Source: a virus
DNA length: 40,736 nt
Strand: one strand, 5' to 3'
UHGV virus genome: UHGV-2023338
This document shows, one piece after another, positions 6,432 to 26,754 of the stretch (the stretch's first letter is position 1; every line of letters starts with the position of its first letter). Both the position numbers and the translations under genes were made by a program. Below the pieces are notes generated by a model. The model worked only from the letters and a program-made list of their open reading frames with translations, was not told where the DNA came from and made no database searches.

Positions 6432-6445
6432 TGTGACATGTCACA
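6432..6445. repeat. Perfect 14-bp palindrome TGTGACATGTCACA (copy 1 of 3)
   Basis: Directly read; immediately preceded by hairpin GGGCCGC-GAAA-GCGGCC (6415-6431). Confidence 0.8.
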
Positions 6446-6451
6446 CTCAAG

Positions 6452-6592
6452 CTATGACAAACCTATGTACCCTGCTACACCAGATAATATCAAAACAACT
6501 GCTACAGCAAATTCACCGTCTTCAATGATACATTTACGATTCATAACGCCAAGGGCAACAAGCACAAATACAACAAGAATAAAAGCAATCAT
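6452..6592 (-). CDS. Small hydrophobic ORF (46 aa), possible membrane peptide
   Basis: Hand translation MIAFILVVFVLVALGVMNRKCIIEDGEFAVAVVLILSGVAGYIGLS; AAGGA RBS 6 nt upstream; not in track (under 60 aa); could be spurious. Confidence 0.25.
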   Translation of the reverse strand: MIAFILVVFVLVALGVMNRKCIIEDGEFAVAVVLILSGVAGYIGLS

Positions 6593-6601
6593 TTCTCATC
6601 C

Positions 6602-9076
6602 TTATTGCGGAGTGACATCCTGTGGTCGCCACCAGTATGTCTGGTTAAACTCTTTCTTCGAACGTTGCTCCATTTTACGCAAATAGCCTGGTGAAAAATA
6701 CTCCTGCATCTGGTTAAAGATCATGTGATCAAGAGCTGCCTTCAAGTACCAGAGATTCGCACCTGGCATCAGCCCTTTCCCAAGTTTCACCAGATCACCA
6801 CCAGTCTGCTCGTTCTTCCCTTCCACAGCATTTAATGGTATGCCCTGAGCTATCTTCACTACGTCATCAACCAGGCCAGCTACCGGGCCAAGCATCGACG
6901 CCAGCGCGCCGCTTCCGTATCTAGTGTGATCTGACAATAAAAAGTCACCGTAAAGGCCAAGACCACCACCTTTCAGTAGAGCACCAAGCCAAAATTTAGC
7001 AGCATCTTCTCCTGTCATCTCGCGAGGATTACGACCAGACGCAAGGTCGTTAAGTTGCTGCGACAAAGCGCCAAGAATGGTCGTACTAGCAATAAACGTC
7101 GCAATATATGCCGCACGCCCACCAGCAGACGGCATACCCATAGCGCGTGACCAGTGACGCATAACCACCGAGATAGGGAACGATTTAAACAGGAAAACAC
7201 TTCTCGTTAATTCACCTTTCCATGTTCCACGCTGAATACCAGAACCGGTTATCAGTTGCTCACGTGCTCCCGGTGTAATAACAGCCATATCAACTTCTTC
7301 AGTTACGGCACCGAGCAGTTTACGCATTGCCTCAAATTTCACGCGTTCAGGCTCACCAAGATGTTTAACTGCTGAATCAGGGATACGCATAATGCTTTCC
7401 GGTGTCAGCATCGTATTATTACCGTTCCCCCAGTCCTCCTGTTGCGCCAGCTTCCATACGCTCCAGTCTGTGTCAGTAATCCCTTTGCTTTTCAGAATAC
7501 GAAAATCAGAGTCATCGAGGCTACGAAGGTCTGGTGTCCGTGACACTACTTCTCCCAGGCTTCCCATCATGGTTACGCCATAGGCGCGCTTGTGCGCATC
7601 TGACCATGCTGTAAGCCCACTGGCACGCATTACCGCCGTTGCCGCCCAACGAGACACTGACGGCCCCATATTATCCATCGCCCAGCGGTTAACGCTGCCA
7701 AGTAGAGATTCCATCGCCAGACCAGCGCGTCGCGCCCGCGCAAGCTCAGTACGGTTCGTTGGGTCCATAGCTTCAAGCTGGTTGCGGAATAACTGGTTCA
7801 TTGGAAGGTTGGTCACCTTCGCAGACAGATACATGGTTCCAAGATCAGAGAACGATGACAGCAACGCGGATCCGAGTCTGCTGGCAACCAGCCAGTTGCG
7901 GATATTGTCAGACCATTGCGCGATGTGCGGATTCGCTACAGGCTGTGTCTTTCCGGAAATAAAGTTGTACAGATTCTCTGTGTTGTTCGCCAGCCGCTCG
8001 ACTTTACCGGTTTTACTCGGGTTAGCTGTTGCCGTTTCTGCCTTAACCTGATCAAGAAGTGAGCGGAAAACATGATCGGGGTTTGGACCATATGTTTCCA
8101 CCAGAGAAATATCTTTACTGATACCTTCCAGGTGACCGACCATGATTTCCCATAGAGAGCGATCGCCATAAAGTTGTTGATATTGGAGATAGGAATCTGC
8201 ATCTTTGAAATGTATCTGTCGTGATGCATTACCACGGTTAGCACGTGCGCCGGAAATTCGCATTCCGGTATCAGTAAGCTTATTCAGCCCACCAGTAGCG
8301 ATCGTGTTATAAGCCTCTCCAAGAAATGCAGACAACTCGGCATCGTTCATCAGTTGTCCATCGGATCGGGTATAATATTTGCGATCCAGCTTACCTATAA
8401 CATCGCTAACCCACTTATCCTTTGATACCGCCCCAACCTTTTCCATAGAATGATGTTGAGGGATCCCCCAGTTTTCGAGATAGCCAATGTCCCCACCAGC
8501 ATCATTAAACCGGCGGCGCAGCAGCTCTGTAACTTCTCTCCACGCCTTAGCACCTTTTCTTGCTTTAGCATTGCCAGTATTTTGCCCCCGCATTTCATAT
8601 ACCAGGTCACGTACGCCCGCTTCATCTTCAAACAGACCAAAAAAGCGAGGATCAACTGCTTCAAATGCCTCCTGCAATTGACTCAATGCATAATCACGAG
8701 TGGCTTTTGTTCTGGATTCAACAGAGAGGAAATTCGATTTACCGTCTGCATTAAAAGCAATAGTACGGTTAAGAGCGCCAAGTTTCCCATCAGCCCCTTG
8801 ATAGCTATTGATAAATTTATCCAATCTCTGACGTGCGGCTATAGTGAGAGCCACACGACGTTTCTTTAATGCCGCTTCTCGCTGTAATTCTTCAGATGCC
8901 AATTGTGCTGCACGATACAACCGTTCTGATTCGGAAAGTTGTCGCCACGACATCGGGTCATCACGAGCAATGGAGCGCATATTTCGATAAATGCGGTCTT
9001 CAATGTTCTGTATTTCTCGCGCCGTTAACGTGCGCTGCGCCGCCTGCTGGACCGCTTGTATACATTCCTGTCTCAT
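6602..9076 (-). CDS. Large internal virion/ejection protein (T7 gp16-position)
   Basis: 824 aa, last of a run of large structural genes before tail fibre; position-based assignment. Confidence 0.6.
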   Translation of the reverse strand: MRQECIQAVQQAAQRTLTAREIQNIEDRIYRNMRSIARDDPMSWRQLSESERLYRAAQLASEELQREAALKKRRVALTIAARQRLDKFINSYQGADGKLGALNRTIAFNADGKSNFLSVESRTKATRDYALSQLQEAFEAVDPRFFGLFEDEAGVRDLVYEMRGQNTGNAKARKGAKAWREVTELLRRRFNDAGGDIGYLENWGIPQHHSMEKVGAVSKDKWVSDVIGKLDRKYYTRSDGQLMNDAELSAFLGEAYNTIATGGLNKLTDTGMRISGARANRGNASRQIHFKDADSYLQYQQLYGDRSLWEIMVGHLEGISKDISLVETYGPNPDHVFRSLLDQVKAETATANPSKTGKVERLANNTENLYNFISGKTQPVANPHIAQWSDNIRNWLVASRLGSALLSSFSDLGTMYLSAKVTNLPMNQLFRNQLEAMDPTNRTELARARRAGLAMESLLGSVNRWAMDNMGPSVSRWAATAVMRASGLTAWSDAHKRAYGVTMMGSLGEVVSRTPDLRSLDDSDFRILKSKGITDTDWSVWKLAQQEDWGNGNNTMLTPESIMRIPDSAVKHLGEPERVKFEAMRKLLGAVTEEVDMAVITPGAREQLITGSGIQRGTWKGELTRSVFLFKSFPISVVMRHWSRAMGMPSAGGRAAYIATFIASTTILGALSQQLNDLASGRNPREMTGEDAAKFWLGALLKGGGLGLYGDFLLSDHTRYGSGALASMLGPVAGLVDDVVKIAQGIPLNAVEGKNEQTGGDLVKLGKGLMPGANLWYLKAALDHMIFNQMQEYFSPGYLRKMEQRSKKEFNQTYWWRPQDVTPQ

Positions 9077-9081
9077 TTAAT

Positions 9082-10884
9082 TTAACCTCTCAAGAAACAC
9101 GCCACAGCAACATCAAACAGGCTGGAATCCTGTATTGCCTGCTCACTTTCCCTGTTCGCTTCATCCAGTACTTCACGCGCACTGCGCGATTGTGGATTAC
9201 CATCATCATCCAGCACGGTGATTATCATGTCCGGAGATTCAAGCAGCGAGTCTTCAGCTATACGCAGATCAATATCTCCTGCCGGATCTGCCATCATTTT
9301 TTGTTCTGTCTGTTGCAATATCTTACCGGGCTCAAAAGGAGCTACTTCGTCTGGCGTCCTGACCTCTGCTGTTTTATAGAATGAAACAGCCTGAGCATTA
9401 AGTTCACTTTCTGCCTGCTGTCGTCGTGCCAGTTCTGCTCGAGCTTCAAAAAACTGACCGCCAGGCTCATGCGGTGCCAACGCGTTACGGGAAAATTCCA
9501 GGCGCTCTTGTGCCTGCCGGATTCGTTGGTCAATATCGCGAAGTCTGACCTGTTTATCTGATCGAGCACGAGACAAAGCTTTACCGCTACCGTTTGGCTC
9601 TTCTGCAAGAATTTGTGCGCGCTGTTCAGTGAGATTTTCAATAATTCGTTGGCTATTAGCGATTTCAGACTGGTAAACCTGTCTATCGCCACGCGGCAAA
9701 AGCTGCGCGGCCTGTTCTTCAAGCAACCGATTTTCTATAGCGCGCGCCGTTACTCCATCATCTACAGATGACAGAGCCTCATTAACTGCCTGAGACAGCA
9801 GACTCTTGCGCCCAGGAATTTCACTGAAAGATGCAGACTCAACAATGCTGGCAACGTCTACAGGTCTCCCCTCGCTAACATCAGACATAGCTTTTCTCAG
9901 AGCCTGAATGTGAGAATTGCGCGAAAGCACGTTGATCGGCACGCCGGGCGCAATATCAATTTCAGCATGATGAGCGGCATTCGCCGCCAGTGCAGCATCA
10001 ACATCAACTGGTGAAAAATTTGCTGCGTTTGTAGACTCGCCGCGAGAGTTAATAAATCTGCCGACACCACCAAACGCCACCCCAAGAACAGCATCAATAG
10101 CAATTGCCTGTCGATCCAACACATCATACTGGTTAGCCATTTCGCTATAGCCACCATCACGAAGCGTTTTTGCAGTAAGCCCACGCTGTGCCATACCGAA
10201 CGCAATATTTGTACCTGCGGCATAGGCAATATCTGGCGTTGCACGTACTGCTGTTGCTGCGGCGCGTCGCACTGAACTCTCACCCGTCCGCGCAAGCTGA
10301 GCCGCCACACCTTCCGCCAGCGCACCACCAGCACGTAACCCGAGGCTCATAGGGATCAGTGTTCCGGCACCAGCAGTAATGCCCTGCACTAATCCCGCTT
10401 CCTGCGCCGTCCTGAAATCAACACCCTGTGCTGTCAGCCGTTCAAACTCAGAAAAACCCTGTAGCGAAGTTACCGCCGCTGCACCTCCGACAGGACCACC
10501 GAGCGTTGTACCGACAACAGCCTGCCCGCCCATATCGAACAACCCATAAAGAACCTGCCCGGCGGTTCCGGTTGTCGCGGCATCAGGCGTCAGCTGCTTA
10601 ACCTGCTGCTCTGCTAGTTTTCTCTGCTCGGCAATGTATGAAACTGAAGTGTCATTGAGCGAGGTGTTTTCGTTAACAAACTGAGCAATCGGGGATACGA
10701 TTTTATCCATCCCTGCCCAGAGCAACTGATCTGGCTTTGCCACCAGCCCGGAGTACAAACCAGACAATGCCGCTCCTACAGCATTGTCGAAAAAACCAAC
10801 ATCGCTGTTAAAACCAGCTGGATTTGATGCTGCTTCGTCAAGCTGCTGATTCTGGTTTACTGGATTAAGGCCAAAGTAACTCAT
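9082..10884 (-). CDS. Internal virion protein, Gly/Ala-rich
   Basis: 600 aa; Gly/Ala-rich low-complexity N-terminal half; within structural operon. Confidence 0.55.
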   Translation of the reverse strand: MSYFGLNPVNQNQQLDEAASNPAGFNSDVGFFDNAVGAALSGLYSGLVAKPDQLLWAGMDKIVSPIAQFVNENTSLNDTSVSYIAEQRKLAEQQVKQLTPDAATTGTAGQVLYGLFDMGGQAVVGTTLGGPVGGAAAVTSLQGFSEFERLTAQGVDFRTAQEAGLVQGITAGAGTLIPMSLGLRAGGALAEGVAAQLARTGESSVRRAAATAVRATPDIAYAAGTNIAFGMAQRGLTAKTLRDGGYSEMANQYDVLDRQAIAIDAVLGVAFGGVGRFINSRGESTNAANFSPVDVDAALAANAAHHAEIDIAPGVPINVLSRNSHIQALRKAMSDVSEGRPVDVASIVESASFSEIPGRKSLLSQAVNEALSSVDDGVTARAIENRLLEEQAAQLLPRGDRQVYQSEIANSQRIIENLTEQRAQILAEEPNGSGKALSRARSDKQVRLRDIDQRIRQAQERLEFSRNALAPHEPGGQFFEARAELARRQQAESELNAQAVSFYKTAEVRTPDEVAPFEPGKILQQTEQKMMADPAGDIDLRIAEDSLLESPDMIITVLDDDGNPQSRSAREVLDEANRESEQAIQDSSLFDVAVACFLRG

Positions 10885-13394
10885 TGCGGAATATCTCCGG
10901 AGAATCTCTGACGCTTCTGTGTCAGATCAAGAACAACGGGAGAACCATCATCTTTTAGCAGATAACCAGTACCAAGTTTCACCAGGTACTGACTATCGCC
11001 GTAACTTTGCAAACCATACTGACCAGGCGGTGTTTTTATCCCTGTGCCAACAACTTGTTCATTCCAAGCCTGATTAACCTGCTTATCGAATTGCTCTGCA
11101 GACATTCCCCACGGCAAAAGAACATTCCCCATTCCGTTATAGTCATGCACGCCACCTGTAGCTACGTTAACAGCCTGTTTCCAGATATCATTGTCAATTT
11201 CGCCTGATACCACGCCTTTTTTCGCCATCACACCAGCGTAATAGTCCTTTGCGATCTCGTATGCCATTGATGCCCCCTGAGCATCACCAGCAAATGCATC
11301 CTTCACCATGTCAGAAAACTCAAGGCGAAGATCAGCATCTTTAGGCATCGGAATACCTTTCGCGTCATCAGTACCTTTACGAGCCGCCGCGCCAGCAAGA
11401 ATTGTCTGCGCAGCGGTTTCAGGAGACACGGAAACATCCGGATTAAACCAGTTTTTTTCTGCCAAAATACCACCTGGCTTATCCATCAGTATCCCGGCAA
11501 CGGCAGCAGATGGAGCGTTGGCACTGATCTGCTGTAGTGCTGACATATACACCTGCCCACCACCAGTGCTCTGCCTGATGGTATCGAGATATGCTGCCTG
11601 TTGGGAAACGGGCGCATCACGAAAGAAAACACCGATCTGATTGGCCTCGTCTTTGGAAAAGAACGTCAGTGGAGTGCCATATGACTTAGCAAGGTCACTG
11701 ACCTGAGCAGCACGCAAGGCAACGCTCTGTCCAAAGTTATCCTTATTGCTCATGTCGATAGGCTTTGCCTGTCCGGCGGCAAGAGAGAACTGTACAGGAT
11801 CAGCCTGTCGCTGCTTTATCACCTGACTTGCAGCCGACACAACGTTGTCATAAAGAGCGGCTCGTGCCGCATAACCCTCCCCTGTCTCACCAGTATCCGG
11901 GCGTAATTGCTCAACATATGCTGTAATGCTGCTTGTCGGCATGTTGCGGAAAGAGCCTATATACTGTCCGGCGATTTGCGTATTTCTGAACTCGGTATAT
12001 CGCAGGTTTCCTTCTCTGACTCCATAAGCTGCAATAAAATCAGCCTCACCAGGTGGGTTAGGAAATTCAACGCCACGCATATACGCAGCTGTCGCATCGC
12101 GAACCTGGCTGTCAATCATCGTTTTATATTCAGCCTGCTGCTGCCGACGCAGTTGATCCGCCTGTCGCATAAAACTTGCCTGCGCCTCAGAAGATGCCGC
12201 ATCGAATGCTGCATTACCGGTATAGCGTTTGGTGTTGGTTGGAATTGTTGATAAACCAAGTGCTGCACTGACACCAGCAGTTAACTGCTGATCACTGTAT
12301 GGCTGGCTACCGTTCTCATGATGGATAATGGCTGCACAAAGCGCCTTCAGGGTATCAGGATTAGATGCATCGAGAGGCTCATCAGCAGAAACGCCAAGTT
12401 GTTCGCACACTGCTTTGATATACGACATAGTGTCATTTTTATCAGTAGGCGGTGCCCAGCGATTAATTATCTCGCTGACGGTATCGATACCCTGCCGCTG
12501 ATACGACATCAGGTTACGCCCTAATGCACGAATCCCGTGCTCAGGTGTTTCGAATTTAGCAAATCGACCATCATCACCGGTCTGGCCTACCCACGGATTA
12601 GTTTTGCTGTATTCGAGATTTCCTGGGTTATTGTTGCGTATGCCACGGGCACGCTCGGAAGAGTCACTATCTGCTACAGCACGGCGAGCTCCAGCAGCAA
12701 TATCACTTAACTCGCCATTACTTTGGATGAATGCGGTCGCATTGTTTGCCGACCACTGGGACAATGCGGCATCAGCAACCTTCTCTTTAAACTCGATTTT
12801 CTTGGCCTGTATTTGCTCGTCGCTCCAGCCATGCGCAATGCCATAATCCTCAATTTGCTGGAAAGTTTGCTTATTAGCCAATACGTATGCGGCGTTGTCG
12901 CCATACAATGCTGCGGCATTTTTACCATTGTTCAGCAGCGTCGCCTGAAACTGGCCTTCTTCGTAGGCATTTATTTGCCCTATCTCGTGCCGCCCGGCCT
13001 GCATAGTGAACTGAATACGCTGCTGCTGCGCCTGCTGCATGAAAGCATTACGAGCCTGTTCATCCGGCAGCGACATAGCCAGTTGTTCGACCTGAGCATC
13101 AAACTGCTGCGTATACTCATGGCCTTTTCCAATAGCATTTTTCCCTTTCAGGTTAAGCAATCCTGTTTCAGGATTATTCAGCAGATCGCTGCTTATCTGA
13201 CTGAGGTTAAGAGATGCCTCCTGAGCCAGAGCGATATTGGCACGCTGTTTTGCCTGCCCCAAAACATCAATTGCCTCTGTCCCTGCCCGAACAAAAGCAT
13301 CACCAATACCTTGCTGAGAAAACGTCTGCAAGCCTGCTGACTGAACTCCACGACTCTCAACCTGACGTCCGGATACTGTTGGTACGACTGGCAT
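10881..13394 (-). CDS. Internal virion (core) protein (T7 gp15-position)
   Basis: Start trimmed to internal Met (MPVVPTVSGRQ) that abuts upstream gene; 837 aa; contains conserved-looking block GIRNNNPGNLEY. Confidence 0.6.
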   Translation of the reverse strand: MPVVPTVSGRQVESRGVQSAGLQTFSQQGIGDAFVRAGTEAIDVLGQAKQRANIALAQEASLNLSQISSDLLNNPETGLLNLKGKNAIGKGHEYTQQFDAQVEQLAMSLPDEQARNAFMQQAQQQRIQFTMQAGRHEIGQINAYEEGQFQATLLNNGKNAAALYGDNAAYVLANKQTFQQIEDYGIAHGWSDEQIQAKKIEFKEKVADAALSQWSANNATAFIQSNGELSDIAAGARRAVADSDSSERARGIRNNNPGNLEYSKTNPWVGQTGDDGRFAKFETPEHGIRALGRNLMSYQRQGIDTVSEIINRWAPPTDKNDTMSYIKAVCEQLGVSADEPLDASNPDTLKALCAAIIHHENGSQPYSDQQLTAGVSAALGLSTIPTNTKRYTGNAAFDAASSEAQASFMRQADQLRRQQQAEYKTMIDSQVRDATAAYMRGVEFPNPPGEADFIAAYGVREGNLRYTEFRNTQIAGQYIGSFRNMPTSSITAYVEQLRPDTGETGEGYAARAALYDNVVSAASQVIKQRQADPVQFSLAAGQAKPIDMSNKDNFGQSVALRAAQVSDLAKSYGTPLTFFSKDEANQIGVFFRDAPVSQQAAYLDTIRQSTGGGQVYMSALQQISANAPSAAVAGILMDKPGGILAEKNWFNPDVSVSPETAAQTILAGAAARKGTDDAKGIPMPKDADLRLEFSDMVKDAFAGDAQGASMAYEIAKDYYAGVMAKKGVVSGEIDNDIWKQAVNVATGGVHDYNGMGNVLLPWGMSAEQFDKQVNQAWNEQVVGTGIKTPPGQYGLQSYGDSQYLVKLGTGYLLKDDGSPVVLDLTQKRQRFSGDIPQ

Positions 13395-17808: not shown

Positions 17809-17852
17809 TCCTGCAATAAAGGGGCCGAAGCCCCTTGTCTGATTCGCGAGGC

Positions 17853-18197: not shown

Positions 18198-18198
18198 C

Positions 18199-18636: not shown

Positions 18637-18687
18637 CTTCTTTCTCCATTAGTGGGTCTGTTACGACCCACAGGTTAATAACAGGCG

Positions 18688-19680: not shown

Positions 19681-19688
19681 TTCCTCTC

Positions 19689-20390
19689 TTATTTGCCATA
19701 GAGCACTTCGGCCGCACTACGCTGGCCTTCATTACCACCGGTGACCATGCCATCTTCAGACATCGCCTTTCCGATTTTCACGAACGTCTTGACCAGATCA
19801 GGGTGATTACCCAGCCCGGTGGTGTTCAGATATTCTTTGAGTTCAGGTGTCCCGAACTGGTCAAGCGCACGCTGTGCGGCGCTAAGGTTAGAAATCAACT
19901 TGTCGCCACCGATTTCTTTGTCAGCTTTTACATCCGCAGCCCACTGCTCGGTTGTTTTCTGCCAGGCTTCTGCCTGGCGCTGCTGAACACCTGCCAGAAT
20001 CTTCGGATAAGCATCAACCAGCTTTTGCGCTTGCTCGTTGGTCAGGTTAAGTTCTCGCGCCACCGGCTCGAATTCCTTCAACGCTTCTGTATCCAGCTCT
20101 ACGCCTTCGGCAGCCTGAAACTCGTACTTCTCCGGCGCACCCTCCGGTTTATCGTCGTCATTTTTTTCACCCTGCTTATCGCTTTCAGGCTTTTTGTCAT
20201 CAGCAGGTTTATCGCCATCAGCAACAGGTTGTGGCTTATCACCTTCCTGTTGTGATGGATCACCAACTGGAGCAGGGTTATCACCTGCAGGCGCTGACGG
20301 TTCTGACGCAGCCGGAGCTACTCCACCATCGACTGGTTGCTCATTGCAAAGACGGCGATACAGCAAACGCTCAAATAAACTCATGATCAC
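19689..20390 (-). CDS. Scaffolding protein (acidic)
   Basis: 233 aa, very acidic Pro/Asp/Glu-rich N-half and helical C-half; located between portal and capsid genes. Confidence 0.55.
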   Translation of the reverse strand: MIMSLFERLLYRRLCNEQPVDGGVAPAASEPSAPAGDNPAPVGDPSQQEGDKPQPVADGDKPADDKKPESDKQGEKNDDDKPEGAPEKYEFQAAEGVELDTEALKEFEPVARELNLTNEQAQKLVDAYPKILAGVQQRQAEAWQKTTEQWAADVKADKEIGGDKLISNLSAAQRALDQFGTPELKEYLNTTGLGNHPDLVKTFVKIGKAMSEDGMVTGGNEGQRSAAEVLYGK

Positions 20391-20683
20391 TCCTGTTCAC
20401 TGGCCTCTTTGGCCATCTTCAAATACTGTTCAGGGCAATGCGCCATAACGCGCTGAAACAGTTCCAGCGCCAGATTGCGTTGCCCCTCATTAAATGCCAT
20501 TGCCATAGCGTCCATCGGCGAGATAGCGGAAAACACACGGCCTTTCTCCAGTACCGACCAGACAACCCGACGCCCCTGTTCACAGCTCATGACAAAGCGA
20601 ATGTCATCAATTTCACGCTGTGCCATGTCACGTTGCTTACGGGCGTTTTCTTCTTTCAGTTGATCGTCTTCGTAATCTGTCAT
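20387..20683 (-). CDS. Hypothetical protein
   Basis: 98-aa ORF overlapping both neighbours by 4 nt. Confidence 0.45.
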   Translation of the reverse strand: MTDYEDDQLKEENARKQRDMAQREIDDIRFVMSCEQGRRVVWSVLEKGRVFSAISPMDAMAMAFNEGQRNLALELFQRVMAHCPEQYLKMAKEASEQE

Positions 20684-22359
20684 TGTGATTGCCCACCCTG
20701 ACCACTAACTGCATTCGCCATAGCTGACAAAACACTCGGATCCGAAGTTTTAGCTTCGCTTAGCGTCTTGGCCCCCTGTGCCGCCGCCATCCCCATCGCC
20801 ATCATTTGTTGCTGCTGTTGCTGCTGTGCCCGTTGCTGGCGAGCCTGCTCAACCTGTTCCTGCGGAACAATGACGGTTGGAGACACTCCGGACATATCAG
20901 CGAATGCATCGATCGCCTGATCAACGTTGAGTTTGTCGAGAGCTTCTGGTTTCGCTTGCGCAAGTTGACCAATGAAGTTAACCGTGGACGCCAGACTGGA
21001 CAGGCCGATAGACTTCTGCGCCTGAGCCATGACGGAAATGTATTCGACCTTCAGGGGCATGCCTTCCATCGCGTCAGGCGGTGGCGGCAGCATGTTTTTA
21101 CGCACCATCATCGAGAAAGCGCGATCAATGAGAGGATTAAGACATTCGTCGTTCAGACGCTCCAGAACCGGCCCCAACATCAGAAGTTTTTCTTCTTTCA
21201 TTTCGATCACCGCTTCAACAGGCATCGAGCGGGTATTGATGTTCTGCAACATCATGAACAGATCGACAAAGTAGGCGCTGTTAATGATTTGGCGAGTGTC
21301 CTGAATGTCTGCCACCAGATCTGCTGTACTGGGGTTAACCAGATAAGCAGGCCTGAAACCATCCTGACCAGTAATCTGATCGATATACGTGATGTCGCCA
21401 GGAAGAAGGGAGGCGCGCTGATTCTTGAGGGAAGTCGGAGCAACCATCGGCGGATTGGTGGCTTTATCAATCAACTGCGACTTGCGCTTCTGGAGAAGCT
21501 GCAATGCCTTAACAGGTCCAAGCGCCAGCATACCCGGGCATGATGATCCATAAACATCTTCGCCGTTAACTTCCCAGCGCGGAGCCATAATTGGAAACTC
21601 ATCGAATCCGGACTCACGCAACAACTTGTCGTTATCGCCACCAACCTCGTAATAAACCGATTTGAATGGCTTGTTCTTGCTATCCAGCTTCGATGTATCG
21701 CGGTCAATGTTCGGGTAAACCGAATGCATCACTTCGATCCACTTCTCGTAGGTGCCGCTTTCCCACATGCTTTTTACGGATTCGCTGACGTTATTTAGCC
21801 CGAACTCCTGAACAAGCTGACGAACAGTCATAGAGAACTTGCGAAAACAGGTGTCAACACTGCCACGAGGTGAGTTAGCCAGGTAGTAACTGCCTATCGG
21901 GAATGGCATTGTGCGAATGATGTCCTCATCATCCTCCAGTACCGCCATTGCACCGGTGCTGTATGTGCCGAGGCTTCCGTATAACTGCGGCAGCGACTGA
22001 TAGAGATTCGACTTATTGAACATATCGTTCATGCGGTTCTGCACCGCCTCAAGCCACAACTTAACAGGGCCATAATCCATCATTTCAGGATCTGGCGTAG
22101 CCAGGCGAAACCACGGACGCGCGGGGCTTGTGATGCCTGACATCATGCCGCTGGCGAGAGTGCGCGCCGCCATAGTCCCGGTCGAATCAATAATGCGTGT
22201 ATTGCGTCGATCGTTACGGTTGACCTCAGAAGTCAGAAAGCGGGAACCACGCGGGTTGATGTAATCACTCAACTCGCGCCAGTGCGGCTCGAACGACTGA
22301 CGCTCGCTTTCAAGTTGTGCGAACTGTTTGTTCAATCGCTCTTTAGTTGTTTCCGCCAT
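20680..22359 (-). CDS. Portal (head-to-tail connector) protein, T7 gp8-like
   Basis: 559 aa; C-terminal Gln/Met/Ala-rich tail (QQQQQQQMMAMGMAAAQGA) resembles T7 gp8 C-terminus; GGAG RBS; precedes scaffold and capsid genes. Confidence 0.8.
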   Translation of the reverse strand: MAETTKERLNKQFAQLESERQSFEPHWRELSDYINPRGSRFLTSEVNRNDRRNTRIIDSTGTMAARTLASGMMSGITSPARPWFRLATPDPEMMDYGPVKLWLEAVQNRMNDMFNKSNLYQSLPQLYGSLGTYSTGAMAVLEDDEDIIRTMPFPIGSYYLANSPRGSVDTCFRKFSMTVRQLVQEFGLNNVSESVKSMWESGTYEKWIEVMHSVYPNIDRDTSKLDSKNKPFKSVYYEVGGDNDKLLRESGFDEFPIMAPRWEVNGEDVYGSSCPGMLALGPVKALQLLQKRKSQLIDKATNPPMVAPTSLKNQRASLLPGDITYIDQITGQDGFRPAYLVNPSTADLVADIQDTRQIINSAYFVDLFMMLQNINTRSMPVEAVIEMKEEKLLMLGPVLERLNDECLNPLIDRAFSMMVRKNMLPPPPDAMEGMPLKVEYISVMAQAQKSIGLSSLASTVNFIGQLAQAKPEALDKLNVDQAIDAFADMSGVSPTVIVPQEQVEQARQQRAQQQQQQQMMAMGMAAAQGAKTLSEAKTSDPSVLSAMANAVSGQGGQSQ

Positions 22360-22373
22360 TTCAATGACTCCGG

Positions 22374-22580
22374 TTACTGACCAAGCAGCGTTTTACCGCT
22401 GGTATTAGCAGTTGATGTGTCGCCCTGAGAACCGGTAAGCAGCGTAGAACTACGACCAGCAGCAGCGCGACGGCGACGTGTTTCTTCGTCGCGGGCATCA
22501 ACAACGGCGGCATCCTGCTCCTGTGGTGCTGCCTGAACTTCTGGTGTTGCAGGCACTGATGGTGAGCTACCCATGCACAT
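22374..22580 (-). CDS. Small hypothetical protein upstream of portal
   Basis: 68-aa ORF with GGAG RBS; competing overlapping ORF in another frame makes call uncertain. Confidence 0.3.
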   Translation of the reverse strand: MCMGSSPSVPATPEVQAAPQEQDAAVVDARDEETRRRRAAAGRSSTLLTGSQGDTSTANTSGKTLLGQ

Positions 22581-22670
22581 ATCAATGACTCCGTACGCAA
22601 TTAAATTATTACCAATTTAACCATATATGATTTATTTATCGTAGGTAGTTGACATTTAACGCACAAATTA

Positions 22671-22685
22671 TTACCTTTAAGGTAA
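22671..22685. promoter_or_regulatory. Operator-like palindrome TTACCTTTAAGGTAA
   Basis: Perfect TTACC-N5-GGTAA; TTGACA hexamer at 22649-22654 lies 17 bp upstream. Confidence 0.5.
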
Positions 22686-23008
22686 GCAAAGGGTTCATTC
22701 CGGTTATTAACCTGACTGGCTTGTCGTTAAATTGAACAGGTGGAGTGAGCTTTTATTTTGAGCAGTACGGCGTATGGCACATGCGCCGATAGCGGTATGG
22801 ATACGTTTAAGGGGCACCCTCCCTTGCTCGGGCAAACGAACCAGGTAGCCGGAATGTGCAAGTCGAGCGGTTTTATTCCGCGCACGGGGATTCACCATCC
22901 CGGCGATTCGGTGTGACGCCTCGGAAGAGACGAGGGTACAACGATGAGAGCATTTATGGAGCTGCGACAAAGTGTGGCGCACTTAACAGGCTAAGTGCTC
23001 TCAGCGTT

Positions 23009-23085
23009 GTGGCATTAGCTCAGTTGGACAGAGCAACCGCCTTCTAAGCGGTTGGTCGCAGGTTCGAATCCTGCATGCCACGCCA
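23009..23085 (+). tRNA. tRNA-Arg (anticodon UCU), phage-encoded
   Basis: Cloverleaf folded by hand: acceptor GTGGCAT/ATGCCAC, D-arm GCTC/GAGC, anticodon stem ACCGC/GCGGT with loop CUUCUAA, T-arm GCAGG-TTCGAAT-CCTGC, encoded CCA. Confidence 0.9.
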
Positions 23086-23128
23086 GAATCACGCCTAAGG
23101 ACCGTGATGCCAGAAGTTCCAGGGGCTT

Positions 23129-23170
23129 GGCGGTGATGGTTTCCCTTGAAGGACTATCACCGCCCTTTTT
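23129..23170 (+). terminator. Candidate terminator downstream of tRNA
   Basis: GGCGGTGAT...ATCACCGCC inverted repeat with long loop, followed by CTTTTT. Confidence 0.4.
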
Positions 23171-23200
23171 ACAGCAGGACGCCATTGCGATGACTTCATG

Positions 23201-23216
23201 CTGTAAACCAGTACAG
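23201..23216. promoter_or_regulatory. LexA-box-like motif CTGTAAACCAGTACAG (weaker)
   Basis: CTGT-N8-ACAG spacing correct but spacer not AT-rich; 68 bp upstream of gene at 23284. Confidence 0.3.
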
Positions 23217-23248
23217 CCACGGAAGGCATAACTCATTGCTTCCAGTTT

Positions 23249-23272
23249 GCCCGGTTCGCCGGGCATTTTTTT
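23249..23272 (+). terminator. Intrinsic terminator/attenuator 12 bp upstream of start codon
   Basis: GCCCGG-TTCG-CCGGGC followed by ATTTTTTT; lies between LexA-like box and RBS of gene at 23284. Confidence 0.55.
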
Positions 23273-23283
23273 AAGGTGAGATT

Positions 23284-23661
23284 ATGAACGACCAGCAAAT
23301 CGAAAAAGAAATCATTGAGAAAGGCAAAACGGCACCGCGAATCACCCCGCAGCACATCGAAGACGTGATTATTAGTGAGCACTATTTCACGGCTGCAGAA
23401 GGGGTTCATGGCGCTAATGAGCTTTTAAAACCGCATGAAAGCCCAATTGACTATTACCAGGAAGCGCACCCTGCTGAGTCACTTCTGACCTTCTGCGTTC
23501 TGGTGCTGCGCAACGGATTTACTGTAACCGGAGAAAGCGCCTGTGCAAGCCATGAAAACTTTGATGCAGAAATTGGTCGGAAGATTGCCCGGCAGAATGC
23601 TGTAAACAAAATCTGGATGCTCGAAGGTTACTTGCTGAAGCAGAAGCTAAGCGAGCAATAA
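23284..23661 (+). CDS. Phage N4 Gp49 / Sf6 gp66-family protein (function unknown)
   Basis: 125 aa; C-terminal pattern VLRNGFTVTGESACASHENFDAEIGRKIA...KIWMLEGYLL matches my recollection of this family; AGGTGAG RBS. Confidence 0.5.
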   Translation: MNDQQIEKEIIEKGKTAPRITPQHIEDVIISEHYFTAAEGVHGANELLKPHESPIDYYQEAHPAESLLTFCVLVLRNGFTVTGESACASHENFDAEIGRKIARQNAVNKIWMLEGYLLKQKLSEQ

Positions 23662-23664
23662 CAC

Positions 23665-23678
23665 CGTGACATGTCACA
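23665..23678. repeat. Palindrome CGTGACATGTCACA (copy 2 of 3)
   Basis: Directly read; 4 nt after stop of gene 23284-23661; followed by hairpin and TTTGTTTT. Confidence 0.8.
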
Positions 23679-23820
23679 AACAGCCGGCCGATGAGCTGGC
23701 TTTGTTTTATCCTCATCAGAGGATATCAACGACATTATCCCCTCATAGGGATACGTTTTTCATAATGACCGAAGATTACCTTAAAGGTAGAATCAGAAAA
23801 AAACCTAAAAGGGCCTGGAC

Positions 23821-24561
23821 ATGCTTGAATCACTTAAAGAATACCTATCTTCAACCGTTAATACCGCTGCGCAAAGGGTCAGAAATCCAGTGTTTGGAGC
23901 GTTCGCACTGTCATGGTGCGCCTTTAACTGGAAGTCGATTTTATACTTACTCCTCAGCGACTCCAGCATCATCGACAAGATCACCTACATTTCCAGCAAT
24001 AGCAGTTGGAAAACGGTATTAGCATTCCCATGTGTTTCAGCAATAATCCTGTGCGGCGGCATGCCCTGGATCAACAACGTGATTTCAAAGTGGCAAGCCA
24101 AACCTCTTGATAATTACGATTCGATAGAGAACCACCGGAAGGCCAAGCGCATTCATCGCGCCACACGCCTGCAGCGCCTGAAGGCAAAGCACGATGTGAC
24201 ATACGACAAAGTTAAGACTGGCGCCGAAAAGGACATACAGGCTATGAAGGAAAGAATTACGGAGTCACAGGCCAGGATGGGTGAGCTAACGTCGGAAAGA
24301 GATAGGCTCTCCGATAAGGTTTTGGAATTGAATAAGAAGCTGGAAAACATGCAATCAGTGGCTGCAGCGTTAAAGATTGAGGCAGAAAAGTCCGCCAGAA
24401 TGCTTGAAGATAGGGAGGCCAAAATAAATAATCTCATACAAGAATTAAAGGAAAAAGAAAAGGAAAGTATCGTATTGCATATGGGCCATGAACCCTTGCG
24501 AAAAACATATACATCACAGGCTGAGAGAATGATTGCTGAAGCCGTGAAAAATAAGCAATAA
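23821..24561 (+). CDS. AT-rich membrane protein with two TM helices and long cytoplasmic coiled coil (candidate superinfection-exclusion/abortive-infection protein)
   Basis: 246 aa; hydrophobic N-terminal segments then K/E-rich heptad-like region; noticeably AT-rich codon usage; converges on terL. Confidence 0.5.
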   Translation: MLESLKEYLSSTVNTAAQRVRNPVFGAFALSWCAFNWKSILYLLLSDSSIIDKITYISSNSSWKTVLAFPCVSAIILCGGMPWINNVISKWQAKPLDNYDSIENHRKAKRIHRATRLQRLKAKHDVTYDKVKTGAEKDIQAMKERITESQARMGELTSERDRLSDKVLELNKKLENMQSVAAALKIEAEKSARMLEDREAKINNLIQELKEKEKESIVLHMGHEPLRKTYTSQAERMIAEAVKNKQ

Positions 24562-24562
24562 A

Positions 24563-26038
24563 TCACGCAAACGGGTCGTAATCTGTGATGGCCTTGCCTT
24601 GCTGGTTCTGCTGACCGGGAATTCGCAGGCGCTTCGACACAGGGAAAGCAAACGTCAGCAATAGCGCATCGCCTTTCCCCGGCGAACGCCCAAGTCGTTC
24701 TTTGATATCTTCCTTCGGTTCGATAACGATTTTACCGTCCACGCGAACTTTGTACTCTGCCGTCGACAGGTCGTCCGCTGTTTCCTGGTCATCCAGCATA
24801 CCGCCCAGCCTCAGCCATGTCTTACATGAGTTGAACATCTCCCCACGCTTGTTGAGCATCTGCGGGTCAGTAGACGCGCCACCGAACGGAACAAGTTGCC
24901 ATGTCCTGCCCCAGCCGTCACCGATGGACTTCAGCCCGGTGCCGTAACCGAAGTCGATGAACACCGCGTCAGCCTGGTACTGGTCTTCAAAGTCGGCGAT
25001 TCGCTTAGCCATAATCAAATCGTCGGTGGTCTTGTTGCCGGTCCAGAGCACTTTGCTGTGCAGCCCCTGCCGCAGGTATATCACCGCGTCATCAACTCCG
25101 GAATACGCCGGGTCGACGCCGATAATCACAGGAGCGTGAGCAACCTGCCCGGCGGTAACCACCCGCTTCATGGCCTCGTCTGTAAGGCCTGTTGGGATAA
25201 ACTGGAGTTCTGACGCGTCAGGGAAGATCCCCCGCACGCGGACCTTCACGAAGTCGCTGTCTTCCCCGTAGTCATCAACCCATTTCTGCAACTGCTGTTT
25301 GTTAGTGCCTTCCACCGTCCGGCTGTCAATCTGCGCAGTTTTCCAGCGGTGTTTATATTTGCGGAAACATTCGCGGAAACGCCCGGTATTACGCGTCGGG
25401 TTCCCGAACGCCACCCAGATGATTTCGGTGTCTTCGTCCGTAAGCGCACCCTCAGCAACTTCCCACACCAGATCCGCAATGTTCGACGCTTCATCGAATA
25501 CCACGATGATGCGTTTGCGCTCGTTGTGTAGTCCGGCGAATGCCTCAGTGTTGTGCTCAGACCAGGGTATTGCGTCAGCCCGCCACCGCTTGTCGTGCCC
25601 AGGATCATTGCTGTACATCGCGGTAGCGGTACAGGTAAACCAGTCTTTCGTGATGGCAAGGTTCGACCACTTGATAATTTCCGGCCAGGTCTTCGTTCGT
25701 AGCTGGTTGTCGGTGTTGGCGGTCACCACGACCTTACAATCCTCGCAAGTGGACATGCCCCAGTTGATCAGCATTGAGATGAATGCGGATTTACCAATAC
25801 CGTGACCAGAAGCGCGTGCCAGCATAAGCGGCTGATAGCGCGTCTCTGGATTCTGCAGGTGATCACGTATCTCTCGGAACGCATCGGCCTGCCACTGACG
25901 TGGACCGGTGGCATGTGCCAGTTCAGTACCCTCTTCCCCCCACGGGAACGCATAGAGGGCATAGCCAAGCGGATCGTGAGTGAACCCTGCAATATCCTCG
26001 ATCAACTGCTCTTCAGGAGATAACGCTGTATCTGTCAC
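24563..26038 (-). CDS. terL: Terminase large subunit
   Basis: 491 aa; Walker A-like ASGHGIGKS and Walker B-like IIVVFDEA; overlaps small subunit by 4 nt. Confidence 0.9.
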   Translation of the reverse strand: MTDTALSPEEQLIEDIAGFTHDPLGYALYAFPWGEEGTELAHATGPRQWQADAFREIRDHLQNPETRYQPLMLARASGHGIGKSAFISMLINWGMSTCEDCKVVVTANTDNQLRTKTWPEIIKWSNLAITKDWFTCTATAMYSNDPGHDKRWRADAIPWSEHNTEAFAGLHNERKRIIVVFDEASNIADLVWEVAEGALTDEDTEIIWVAFGNPTRNTGRFRECFRKYKHRWKTAQIDSRTVEGTNKQQLQKWVDDYGEDSDFVKVRVRGIFPDASELQFIPTGLTDEAMKRVVTAGQVAHAPVIIGVDPAYSGVDDAVIYLRQGLHSKVLWTGNKTTDDLIMAKRIADFEDQYQADAVFIDFGYGTGLKSIGDGWGRTWQLVPFGGASTDPQMLNKRGEMFNSCKTWLRLGGMLDDQETADDLSTAEYKVRVDGKIVIEPKEDIKERLGRSPGKGDALLLTFAFPVSKRLRIPGQQNQQGKAITDYDPFA

Positions 26039-26631
26039 TGATTACCATCCTGACGTTCTTTGAGTCGCTTCCTGGCTGCTGCTATGCGATCAGCAATTGT
26101 CACATTCACATTAACATCCAGGCGTTCTTTGAATGCGTTGACGTCGACGTGCTTACCAATCAGTTCTAGGTTCTTCACCTTGTCAGGCCATTTAATTTTT
26201 TTGAGGATTGTCTCTATCGAGTCCTCGTTCATGTTCATGATGGTCGATGACAGATCAAAGCCGCTAAGCGTAGTGCGCCATATTTTCGGCCACTCGCGGA
26301 TTGGCTTAAGACTCCCATCGTCGTTGAGGATATCAATCACGTCCATCTGGTCGATCTCCACCAGGCGCATGAGAACGTAATCAGCACTGACGCGCATTCG
26401 TTTGTTGCGCTCCTCCATCAACTCGGCAATCCGTTTTTTAATGCGTTCATCACGCATCATGACACTGGCTTTAACTGCCGCTGTATTTGGGGAGAATCCT
26501 GCGTTAATCGCTGCCTGAGTCTGGTTTTCAGGCGTTTTGATGTATGACTGGCAATAAGCCTCCTGCATTGCTGTTAGTGGCTTAAATTGCGTTGATTTGC
26601 GTTTATAGGTTTTAGGTTCAGCAGACATCAT
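26035..26631 (-). CDS. terS: Terminase small subunit
   Basis: Start trimmed to Met downstream of hairpin terminator (track ORF N-terminal extension is Thr/Val/Ile junk); HTH-like FSPNTAA region; directly upstream of terL. Confidence 0.7.
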   Translation of the reverse strand: MMSAEPKTYKRKSTQFKPLTAMQEAYCQSYIKTPENQTQAAINAGFSPNTAAVKASVMMRDERIKKRIAELMEERNKRMRVSADYVLMRLVEIDQMDVIDILNDDGSLKPIREWPKIWRTTLSGFDLSSTIMNMNEDSIETILKKIKWPDKVKNLELIGKHVDVNAFKERLDVNVNVTIADRIAAARKRLKERQDGNQ

Positions 26632-26638
26632 AACCACC

Positions 26639-26667
26639 GTGGTAATAGTTACCGTTGTGGTAATAGT
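26639..26667. repeat. Direct repeat GTGGTAATAGT x2 (18-bp period) containing operator-like TTACCGTTGTGGTAA (26649-26663)
   Basis: Directly read; lies across terS start region, between late-region terminator and terS coding sequence. Confidence 0.6.
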
Positions 26668-26673
26668 ACCATG

Positions 26674-26700
26674 CAAAATAAAGCCGCCATAGTTGGCGGC
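26674..26700 (-). terminator. Intrinsic terminator upstream of terS (minus strand), tR-prime-like
   Basis: GCCGCCA-tagt-TGGCGGC hairpin followed on minus strand by TTTATTTTG. Confidence 0.5.
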
Positions 26701-26740
26701 AGTATTCAAAACCCATCAAATTCATCATGCATAATCTAAT

Positions 26741-26754
26741 CGTGACATGTCACA
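26741..26754. repeat. Palindrome CGTGACATGTCACA (copy 3 of 3)
   Basis: Directly read; overlaps stop codon of gene 26750-27091. Confidence 0.8.

What the first reader, a model, noticed from the sequence alone, without database searches (positions are those of the whole stretch)
6432..26754. Three copies of a 13-14 bp perfect palindrome (GTGACATGTCACA), each at a module junction next to a GC hairpin
Seen: TGTGACATGTCACA at 6432-6445, CGTGACATGTCACA at 23665-23678 and 26741-26754. Each follows a gene stop (overlapping it at 26750) and abuts a stem-loop. The three positions bracket the SOS moron, the tRNA island and the start of the late operon. Inference: a conserved protein-binding or RNA element, for example a site for the late regulator or a boundary sequence promoting modular exchange. 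Function is unknown.
Basis: seen in the sequence. Interest (0 to 1): 0.6.

Follow-up and report, generated by a model that had tools for sequence, protein, structure and literature searches.

The report
Phage regulator's dispersed 12-bp binding site
The three identical palindromes are real and are most likely the DNA docking sites of a small, uncharacterised DNA-binding protein whose gene ends inside one of the copies, a protein-plus-site pairing kept in many unrelated temperate phages whose purpose is still unknown.

Summary
GTGACATGTCAC occurs exactly three times (6433, 23666, 26742); none is expected by chance, and the flanks are unrelated. The window is an epsilon15/phiV10-like (Uetakevirus) prophage, and the same 12-mer sits at the same three places in epsilon15, phiV10, Tyrion and SPN9TCW.

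One copy always overlaps or directly follows the stop codon of a 112-aa gene (26750-27088, minus strand; epsilon15 gp49 / N15 gp46 family, phrog_536, no Pfam). This holds whatever lies downstream, and in homologues down to about 30% identity:
- ZF40: same 12-mer.
- N15-like phages: GTGACTGGTCAC.
- A Paraglaciecola genome: GTGACAGGTCAC.
- Pseudomonas phages: GTGACGGGTAAC.

Genomes that encode the family carry 3 to 10 such sites, against about 0.03-0.08 expected. The protein models confidently as a ribbon-helix-helix DNA binder with a C-terminal Cys4 domain.

Best reading: the palindrome is this protein's operator. What binding achieves is inferred only. In this phage all three sites lie at operon ends next to terminators, which fits a transcription barrier and self-limitation at its own stop codon. 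An architectural, MatP/matS-like role is not excluded, because the site equals consensus matS minus its central base pair. Neither motif nor protein appears in the searchable literature.

The parts
6432..6445 (.). Palindrome copy a (core GTGACATGTCAC 6433-6444). It lies at the end of the structural-gene operon, where that operon converges with a LexA-box moron.
   Evidence: The same composite of palindrome, 1-3 nt and a GGCCGC...GCGGCC hairpin is invariant in epsilon15, phiV10, TL-2011b and Tyrion, while the upstream flank is not conserved.
6416..6431 (-). G+C-rich terminator hairpin GGCCGCTTTCGCGGCC, directly adjacent to copy a.
   Evidence: Terminator-like scan. Annotated as a rho-independent terminator at the equivalent place in epsilon15 and phiV10. 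The stem is invariant in alignment A5.
23665..23678 (.). Palindrome copy b (core 23666-23677), 4 nt after the stop of the plus-strand N4-gp49/Sf6-gp66-family moron gene (23284-23661).
   Evidence: A syntenic copy lies next to the terL terminator in epsilon15, phiV10, Tyrion and SPN9TCW.
23682..23701 (+). Terminator hairpin plus T-tract, 4 nt from copy b.
   Evidence: Annotated as a terminator in phiV10.
26741..26754 (.). Palindrome copy c (core 26742-26753). It contains the TGA stop codon (26752-26750, minus strand) of the RHH/Cys4 protein gene.
   Evidence: In 77 of 78 evaluable loci found through the protein, the exact motif sits at this position.
26750..27088 (-). Gene for the 112-aa ribbon-helix-helix plus Cys4 protein (epsilon15 gp49 / phiV10 p55 / N15 gp46 family, phrog_536). 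This is the proposed binder of the palindrome.
26683..26700 (-). Intrinsic terminator between copy c and the small-terminase gene. It marks the end of the early-right operon.
   Evidence: Annotated as a terminator at the same place in epsilon15.

Best explanation
The palindrome is the cognate DNA site (operator) of the phage's own 112-aa ribbon-helix-helix/Cys4 protein, encoded at 26750-27088 on the minus strand.

How binding would work (inferred): a dimer places its two-stranded beta-ribbon in the major groove over the ACATGT centre and reads two GTGAC half-sites. Each genome that encodes the family keeps one site welded to the 3' end of the gene, usually with the gene's TGA stop inside the half-site, and two or more further sites elsewhere.

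What binding achieves (inferred, not shown): in this phage all three sites sit at the ends of consecutive transcription units, next to intrinsic terminators. These units are the early-right operon, the terS-terL side and the structural operon, and two of the junctions face convergent LexA-box morons. My preferred reading is therefore an orientation-independent barrier to RNA polymerase that does two things:
- It reinforces or insulates these operon ends.
- At its own stop codon, it limits its own and downstream expression, in the manner of LacI bound to O3.

My estimates:
- About 0.7 that the site is bound by this protein.
- About 0.3 that the main effect is a transcription barrier.
- About 0.25-0.3 that the main role is architectural (bridging or marking of phage DNA).
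For: 1. Exact and positional conservation. The 12-mer is identical at the three syntenic places in epsilon15 (about 80% nt identity to the window), phiV10, Tyrion and SPN9TCW, while its flanks diverge.

2. Gene-site linkage, whichever way the loci were found.
- 41 of 120 viral contigs found through the motif have it at the 3' end of a family gene.
- 77 of 78 evaluable loci found through the protein have it there.
- The linkage holds whatever follows: terminator plus terS, a LexA-box promoter, the ribosome-binding site of another gene, or xis.

3. Deep conservation with lineage-specific variation.
- ZF40 gp22 (66% identity): exact motif 2 nt after a TAA stop.
- Pantoea AH07: GTGACCTGTCAC.
- N15 gp46 and phiKO2 gp45 (35%): GTGACTGGTCAC over the stop, seen in 49 of 49 N15-like loci.
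- Paraglaciecola homologue (about 32%): GTGACAGGTCAC over the stop.
- Pseudomonas lineage: GTGAC-N2-GTAAC over the stop in 14 of 18 loci.
- Beta-strand residues differ between these groups.

4. Multi-copy enrichment in genomes that encode the family.
- Three GTGAC-N2-GTCAC sites each in the window, epsilon15, ZF40, N15 and Vibrio K308, against 0.02-0.045 expected and at most 1 in 500 simulations.
- 4-10 GT[G/T]AC-N2-GT[C/A]AC sites per Pseudomonas-phage locus of 12-20 kb, against 0.04-0.08 expected for a 20-kb locus.
- Within a genome the sites share the same centre dinucleotide.
- Lambda has no family gene and no site.

6. Barrier reading.
- The sites directly flank terminators.
- LexA boxes at 6114 and 23201 drive plus-strand genes that run into copies a and b.
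- There is precedent for an operator at the 3' end of the regulator's own gene acting as a roadblock: LacI-O3 (PMC3711431) and the Kpn2I C protein (PMC6237814), both found.
Against: - No binding experiment exists. The link rests entirely on comparative genomics.
- A complete lambdoid genome (AsXd-1, 99% identical to a contig group in IMG/VR) has the exact 12-mer over the stop codon of its YdaS/Cro-like gene, yet has no family gene at all (HMM search at E<=10 finds nothing). The motif can therefore exist without the protein in cis.
- A Yersinia homologue has no site within 3 kb. In Vibrio K308 the nearest site is 226 nt from the gene rather than at its stop.
- Against the barrier reading in particular: in ZF40, N15 and Pseudomonas phages many sites lie inside genes, including terL and a portal-like gene. 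A tight roadblock there would be harmful.
- In this phage each site already has a terminator beside it.
Confidence: 0.68

Rival explanations
1. The sites are read by a host nucleoid protein rather than by the phage protein. The candidates are MatP, SlmA or an unknown factor. Phage DNA would be tethered, or the host system titrated.
For: - Consensus E. coli matS is GTGACATTGTCAC (PMC8669397; pattern GTGAC[AG]N[TC]GTCAC, PMC3603311). The phage 12-mer is that sequence minus the central base pair.
- The SlmA site GTGAGTACTCAC is also a 12-bp palindrome with the same outer 4+4 bases (PMC3116907).
- The motif occurs at a cro-like stop codon in a phage that lacks the family gene.
Against: - The spacing differs from matS by 1 bp, and no 13-bp matS is present in the window.
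- The four central bases differ from the SlmA site.
- The centre dinucleotide, and in Pseudomonas phages even a half-site, change with the phage protein lineage and not with the host.
- The family and its gene-end site occur in Pseudomonas phages. To my knowledge Pseudomonas has no MatP or SlmA; this point rests on memory.
- The tight linkage to the 3' end of one phage gene is unexplained by a host reader.
Confidence: 0.08
2. The protein-site pair is a Q-like antitermination device. The protein loads onto RNA polymerase at the DNA site just upstream of a terminator and lets polymerase read through into the next late module.
For: - At copy c the order is: regulator gene, site, terminator, terS.
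- The half-site GTGACA matches a -35 hexamer in 5 of 6 positions, and a promoter-like GTGACA-18-CATGAT was found. In epsilon15 and Tyrion the arrangement GTGACA-17-TAAATT can be read directly from the sequence.
- In one reading direction each site precedes a terminator by 1-40 nt.
- The C-terminal Cys4 region gives weak profile hits to the RNAP-binding TraR/YbiI zinc-finger family (E about 0.06).
Against: - There is no similarity to any Q family.
- ZF40 and N15 carry their own Q-type regulators as well as this pair.
- In many lineages no terminator follows the gene-end site.
- The promoter-like match is at chance level (6 found, 6.2 expected).
Confidence: 0.1
3. The palindrome is a junction sequence at which phage modules and morons are exchanged. 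It would be a recombination hot spot or the target of a nuclease or recombinase, not a regulatory site.
For: - In Uetakeviruses all three sites border hypervariable regions. Between copy c and terS the content varies: nothing, an extra gene, or a LexA-controlled umuD-like gene.
- The window has a 246-aa ORF inserted beside copy b that phiV10 lacks.
- The gene upstream of copy a differs between epsilon15, phiV10, TL-2011b and Tyrion.
- The same 12-mer ends different YdaS/Cro-like genes.
Against: - Equivalent sites in ZF40 (gp08, gp12), N15 (repA) and Pseudomonas phages (terL and others) lie inside conserved coding sequence.
- Twelve base pairs is too short for homology-driven exchange.
- No recombinase or nuclease co-occurs consistently with the site.
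- Operon ends tolerate insertions for unrelated reasons.
Confidence: 0.06
4. It acts as RNA, either as a small hairpin that forms part of the terminators or as a processing or translational signal.
For: - It is transcribed at gene ends.
- It often lies 4-20 nt upstream of the next gene's Shine-Dalgarno sequence (N15, K308 and several contig types).
Against: - The hairpin is weak (-2.8 kcal/mol; 57 of 200 shuffles fold as well) and is not consistently formed in context.
- The half-site sequence is invariant across homologues at 30-35% identity, and no compensatory stem changes are seen.
- In the Pseudomonas lineage the gene-end site is an imperfect inverted repeat, GTGAC..GTAAC.
- No T-tract follows it in the window.
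Confidence: 0.04

Closest known systems
Ribbon-helix-helix repressor/operator pairs (Arc, Mnt, CopG, MetJ, AmrZ, TacA)
   Same: - A short dyad-symmetric DNA site of about one dimer footprint.
- A phage-encoded small regulator.
   Different: - It has an extra N-terminal basic helix and a C-terminal Cys4 domain.
- The site is not in the regulator's promoter. It is embedded in or next to its own stop codon, with 2-9 further single sites kilobases apart, many at gene ends or inside genes.
- No sequence-level membership in any Pfam RHH family.
MatP-matS (Ter macrodomain organiser of E. coli)
   Same: - Consensus matS GTGACATTGTCAC differs from the phage site only by one extra central base pair.
- Both systems use single sites dispersed over a replicon rather than promoter-proximal arrays.
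   Different: - The site is 12 bp, not 13 bp.
- There is no detectable sequence homology (hhalign probability 0.2%).
- The phage protein lacks MatP's four-helix bundle and coiled coil, and has a Cys4 domain instead.
- It is phage-borne and also occurs in Pseudomonas phages.
LacI with its auxiliary operator O3 at the 3' end of lacI (roadblock autoregulation); Kpn2I C-protein roadblock
   Same: An operator overlaps the 3' end of the regulator's own coding sequence. This could truncate its own transcript and gate downstream genes (PMC3711431, PMC6237814).
   Different: - The protein fold is different.
- No nearby primary operator or promoter is known.
- Truncated transcripts and tmRNA tagging have not been tested here.
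SlmA binding site (SBS, GTGAGTACTCAC)
   Same: A 12-bp palindrome with identical outer GTGA....TCAC (PMC3116907).
   Different: - The four central bases differ (CATG against GTAC).
- SlmA is a TetR-family host protein.
- Nothing here links the phage sites to cell division.
Lambda Q with its binding element at PR' and terminator tR'
   Same: At copy c only, the order is regulator gene, then DNA site, then terminator, then the first late genes.
   Different: - No Q homology.
- The arrangement is not conserved in other lineages.
- Q-type regulators coexist with this pair in ZF40 and N15.

Membership tests
Ribbon-helix-helix DNA-binding proteins | N-terminal beta-strand followed by two helices (beta-alpha-alpha fold). 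| tested here: met
   [not shown]
Ribbon-helix-helix DNA-binding proteins | Sequence membership in a curated RHH family. | tested here: not met
   No Pfam or NCBIfam hit at threshold. Only sub-threshold hits to RHH_5, RepB-RCR_reg and RHH_1, at E 0.013-0.07, in 1-2 of 55 members.
Ribbon-helix-helix DNA-binding proteins | A dimer binds a dyad or repeat DNA site through the paired beta-ribbon. | not testable with these tools
   Only a monomer could be modelled, and no binding assay was possible. The site is dyad-symmetric and of suitable size.
MatP/matS | 13-bp site GTGAC[AG]N[TC]GTCAC. | tested here: not met
   All three window sites have a 2-bp, not a 3-bp, centre, and no spacer-3 site is present in the window. 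Definition taken from PMC3603311 and PMC8669397.
MatP/matS | The binding protein is homologous to MatP. | tested here: not met
   hhalign of family alignment A3 against E. coli MatP gave probability 0.2%. The MatP sequence was verified against PDB 4d8j. Only the generic RHH fold is shared.
MatP/matS | Host MatP binds the site. | not testable with these tools
   This needs an EMSA or ChIP experiment.
SlmA binding site | 12-bp palindrome GTGAGTACTCAC. | tested here: not met
   8 of 12 positions are identical. The central CATG differs from GTAC.
CRP site | TGTGA-N6-TCACA. | tested here: not met
   The spacing here is N4 (TGTGA-CATG-TCACA), as read from the sequence. The consensus is quoted from memory.
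Intrinsic terminator | A stable G+C-rich hairpin followed by a T-tract. | tested here: not met
   The palindrome folds at only -2.8 kcal/mol and has no T-tract. The neighbouring hairpins, not the palindrome, are the terminators.
Lambda-type Q antitermination module | A Q-family protein, plus a binding element inside a promoter that is followed by a terminator. | tested here: not met
   No Q-family hit. The promoter-like match at copy c is at chance level. The arrangement is absent in other lineages.
3'-end operator roadblock autoregulation (LacI-O3 type) | An operator overlaps the 3' end of the regulator's own gene. | tested here: met
   The stop codon lies inside the site in the window, in N15-like phages, AH07, Paraglaciecola and Pseudomonas lineages, and 2-10 nt before the site in others.
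3'-end operator roadblock autoregulation (LacI-O3 type) | Truncated non-stop transcripts and tmRNA tagging of the regulator. | not testable with these tools
   This needs 3'-end mapping and tagging assays.
cos/pac packaging site | Genome termini generated at the site. | tested here: inconclusive
   The Tyrion record begins at the palindrome centre and the phiV10 record ends on the TGA inside it. Other records of the genus open elsewhere, and three copies per genome do not fit a unique cleavage site. This most likely reflects a convention for opening records.

The most novel reading that the evidence does not exclude
The pair is a phage-borne analogue of the MatP-matS kind of system. A sequence-specific RHH protein would recognise matS-like sites scattered over the phage genome (3 in enterobacterial phages, up to 10 per 20 kb in Pseudomonas phages). 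Its main job would be to mark, bridge or organise phage DNA rather than to control a promoter. Examples are looping, pairing of copies, keeping SMC/MukBEF-type complexes off the DNA, or interfering with host MatP or SlmA.
Probability: 0.15. Interest if true: 0.85.

Novelty: new variant of a known kind. Interest (0 to 1): 0.62.

Why it matters
If the link holds, it gives a name and a directly testable function to a widespread family of 'hypothetical' phage proteins. The family includes epsilon15 gp49, N15 gp46, phiKO2 gp45 and ZF40 gp22, and occurs in prophages of Escherichia, Salmonella, Klebsiella, Vibrio, Pseudoalteromonas and Pseudomonas.

It also defines an unusual regulatory layout. The operator is fused to the regulator's own stop codon, and a few further single sites lie dispersed along the genome.

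In Uetakeviruses such as phiV10, which is used in O157 typing and detection, it would explain how the ends of the early, packaging and structural operons are marked.

The near-identity of the site to matS raises a testable question: do phages copy, avoid or interfere with the host's chromosome-organising sites?

Tried and rejected
- **Longer repeat or mobile element.** Rejected: the flanks do not align, and the repeat finder shows no larger family.
- **Operator of the prophage repressor.** Rejected: the repressor-type motif in this genus is TTACC-N5-GGTAA (annotated in epsilon15; 13 matches in the window against 0.74 expected). It lies at operon starts, not ends. The cI-cro region of the AsXd-1-type phage also lacks GTGAC sites.
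- **MatP homology.** Tested by hhalign and rejected.
- **First structure model from a shallow alignment.** Poor (pLDDT 60) and not used.
- **The second 12-mer copy in AsXd-1-type phages.** It is in coding sequence (Ser-Val-Thr-Cys-His-Ser-Cys of a Q-like gene), and its centre varies at the codon wobble position in relatives. It is therefore treated as a coding coincidence.
- **Many other viral-contig hits to the 14-mer.** These lie in coding sequence of unrelated genes, for example the N-terminus of Q proteins, and are treated as background.
- **Literature.** No paper in the library holds the motif strings. The epsilon15 genome paper (PMC2698709) is not held, but its GenBank features do not mark the palindrome.
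Full report
**1. The observation**

GTGACATGTCAC occurs exactly three times in the window, at 6433, 23666 and 26742. Shuffled sequence gives zero matches. The three copies share the 13-mer GTGACATGTCACA. Only copy a is a perfect 14-bp palindrome. With 60-nt flanks on both strands, only the 12 core columns are invariant, and no larger repeat family contains them.

Gene stops:
- Copy c holds the TGA stop of the minus-strand ORF 26750-27088.
- Copy b begins 4 nt after the stop of ORF 23284-23661.
- Copy a lies 7 nt after the stop of a 46-aa minus-strand gene (6452-6592).

Terminator-like hairpins lie directly beside copy a (6416-6431), 4 nt from copy b (23682-23701) and about 40 nt from copy c (26683-26700).

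**2. What the window is**

The window is an epsilon15/phiV10-like (Uetakevirus) prophage, with its late genes on the minus strand (annotated relatives).

In the direction of late transcription the order is:
- early-right operon, ending with the 112-aa gene
- copy c
- terminator
- terS-terL
- copy b with a terminator, followed by plus-strand morons and tRNA-Arg
- structural operon
- copy a with a terminator, followed by plus-strand morons and the tailspike gene

Perfect LexA boxes at 6114 and 23201 precede the two plus-strand genes that run into copies a and b. A different dyad, TTACC-N5-GGTAA, gives 13 matches against 0.74 expected. It marks the starts of operons and the immunity region, and is the motif annotated as the repressor site in epsilon15.

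**3. Conservation in close relatives**

The exact 12-mer is found at the same three places in epsilon15, Tyrion and SPN9TCW, and at two of them plus a one-mismatch third in phiV10. TL-2011b keeps two. Alignments of sites a and b show an invariant block made of the palindrome and the adjacent terminator stem, set in otherwise diverged sequence. The epsilon15 and phiV10 records annotate the terminators but not the palindrome.

**4. Link to one gene**

A scan of viral contigs for CGTGACATGTCACA returned at least 120 stretches. In 41 of them the motif lies at the 3' end of a homologue of the 112-aa protein, including contigs that share no other gene with the window.

Starting from the protein instead, 77 of 78 evaluable loci carry the exact motif at the stop codon, and one carries a single mismatch. 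What follows the motif varies freely: terminator plus terS, an extra gene, a LexA-box promoter with an umuD-like gene, or xis.

Only 5 nt of the motif are coding, so coding constraint cannot explain the conservation.

**5. Depth of the link**

The family is phrog_536. It has no Pfam or NCBIfam model, and every database homologue is 'hypothetical'. It has 181 representatives at 50% clustering.

| Lineage | Protein identity | Site at the gene's 3' end |
|---|---|---|
| Pectobacterium ZF40 gp22 | 66% | exact 12-mer, 2 nt after a TAA stop |
| Pantoea AH07 | 57% | GTGACCTGTCAC |
| N15 gp46, phiKO2 gp45 | 35-37% | GTGACTGGTCAC over the stop; 49 of 49 N15-like loci |
| Paraglaciecola genome | about 32% | GTGACAGGTCAC over the stop |
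| Pseudomonas phages | not measured against the window protein | GTGAC-N2-GTAAC over the stop in 14 of 18 loci, plus a second site inside the gene's own 5' end |

The half-sites are thus conserved far beyond the point where synonymous sites are saturated. The centre dinucleotide, and in Pseudomonas one half-site, change by lineage, together with the residues of the predicted beta-strand.

**6. Several sites per genome**

GTGAC-N2-GTCAC occurs three times in each of the following, against 0.02-0.045 expected and never more than one in 500 simulations:
- the window
- epsilon15
- ZF40, at 5125, 7622 and 14944
- N15, at 28550, 33237 and 39269
- Vibrio phage K308, at 21342, 33227 and 35942, the last of these 20 nt upstream of terS

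. The second and third N15 sites are conserved in position across diverged N15-like contigs. Pseudomonas loci carry 4-10 GT[G/T]AC-N2-GT[C/A]AC sites per locus of 12-20 kb, against 0.04-0.08 expected for a 20-kb locus. Lambda has neither the gene nor a site.

**7. The protein**

A shallow alignment gave a poor model. A diverse alignment (A3) gave a confident one, with pLDDT 92.7.

The C-terminal part has Cys79 and Cys82 invariant, Cys99 nearly so, and a fourth Cys near position 91. It gives only insignificant profile hits to TraR/YbiI zinc fingers. An RHH dimer on a 12-bp dyad is a standard geometry, so the protein is a credible reader of the site. That it binds is inference, not observation.

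**8. What binding might do**

*Barrier reading.* In this phage the three sites close three consecutive transcription units, and two face convergent SOS-controlled morons. This fits a barrier that stops polymerase from either side. Its position on its own stop codon recalls the LacI-O3 roadblock (PMC3711431).

*Against that reading.* Sites in ZF40, N15 and Pseudomonas phages lie inside genes, including terL.

*Architectural reading.* Those internal sites suit an architectural role better. The site equals consensus matS (GTGACATTGTCAC, PMC8669397) minus its central base pair, and shares its outer bases with the SlmA site (PMC3116907). MatP is itself an RHH protein.

*Against that reading.* The phage protein shows no sequence homology to MatP, and the spacing differs. 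The family and its site also exist in Pseudomonas phages. A direct role of host MatP is therefore unlikely.

*Other readings.* A Q-like antitermination role fits only copy c, and is contradicted by the coexistence of Q-type regulators in ZF40 and N15. An RNA role is unlikely.

**9. Exceptions, reported as found**

- A group of lambdoid contigs and the complete genome AsXd-1 carry the exact 12-mer on the stop codon of a YdaS/Cro-like gene, but have no family gene.
- Their second copy is a coding coincidence.
- A Yersinia homologue has no site nearby.

These cases keep my confidence in the protein-site link below 0.75.

**10. Novelty**

No paper in the searchable library contains the motif strings. 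A survey of 500 prophages looked only for the 13-bp matS and found none (PMC3603311). The pair is best filed as a new variant of the RHH regulator/operator kind, with three unusual features:
- an added Cys4 domain
- an operator fused to the regulator's own stop codon
- a small set of dispersed single sites

These features are conserved from enterobacterial to Pseudomonas phages.

Noticed in passing
window 6060, 22671, 23776, 26631, 26649, 31015, 31077, 33023, 33360, 33408, 34120, 34182: A second dyad motif, TTACC-N5-GGTAA, gives 13 matches with at most one mismatch, against 0.74 expected. It is the motif annotated as 'repressor / lysogeny' binding sites in the epsilon15 record. It sits at the starts of operons and morons and in the immunity region, whereas GTGACATGTCAC sits at their ends.
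   Followed up: partly
window 6114-6129 and 23201-23216: Perfect LexA boxes (CTGT-N8-ACAG) lie upstream of the two plus-strand moron genes (about 6150-6408 and 23284-23661). The 3' ends of these genes meet palindrome copies a and b. The listed ORF 6043-6408 probably starts downstream of the box.
   Followed up: partly
window 23821-24561 (+): A 246-aa ORF (phrog_4780, with weak coiled-coil/SMC-like hits) lies between terL and the terminator/palindrome b. It is absent from phiV10 at this place, so it is a recent insertion next to the site.
   Followed up: partly
window 32323-32472: Tandem 24-nt iterons (ATCCCGTTTTTGGGATCATTCAAC, three copies) and related repeats lie inside ORF 31911-32726 (-). 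They probably mark the replication origin within the initiator gene.
   Followed up: no
window 23009-23085: tRNA-Arg (anticodon TCT) lies in the variable region between copy b and the structural operon.
   Followed up: no
window 20620-20631: A one-mismatch copy, GTGCCATGTCAC, lies inside a coding sequence. It is conserved in phiV10 and TL-2011b and is statistically not above chance.
   Followed up: partly
L332 (Aeromonas phage AsXd-1) 11251; contigs L266-L301: The exact 12-mer overlaps the stop codon of a YdaS/Cro-like gene in a lambdoid phage group that has no homologue of the RHH/Cys4 protein anywhere in the complete genome. This is an unexplained exception to the gene-site link.
   Followed up: partly
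L264 (Vibrio phage K308) 19491: GTGACACCGTCAC is an exact match to the 13-bp matS consensus, in a phage that also has three 12-bp GTGAC-N2-GTCAC sites.
   Followed up: no
L211 (N15) 33482, 35933, 41127, 45564: The same scan finds four dispersed CGACC-N2-GGTCG dyads. The phiKO2 record annotates a 'putative plasmid partitioning site' at the corresponding place just upstream of its late promoter. These are probably the dispersed SopB centromere sites of N15, so N15 would carry two independent sets of dispersed dyad sites.
   Followed up: no
L333-L348 (Pseudomonas phage contigs), about 365 nt upstream of the family gene's stop: In the Pseudomonas lineage the family gene is bracketed by two sites, one within its first ten codons and one over its stop codon. 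A further site of the same sequence in opposite orientation is conserved about 3.8 kb downstream inside a 583-aa terL-like ORF.
   Followed up: partly
L006 (Tyrion) record ends; L004 (phiV10) record ends: The Tyrion GenBank record begins exactly at the centre of the palindrome, and the phiV10 record ends on the TGA inside it. If the phiV10 ends are joined, its third site reads GTGACATGTTAC, one mismatch. This is most likely a convention for opening records, not evidence of a terminus.
   Followed up: partly
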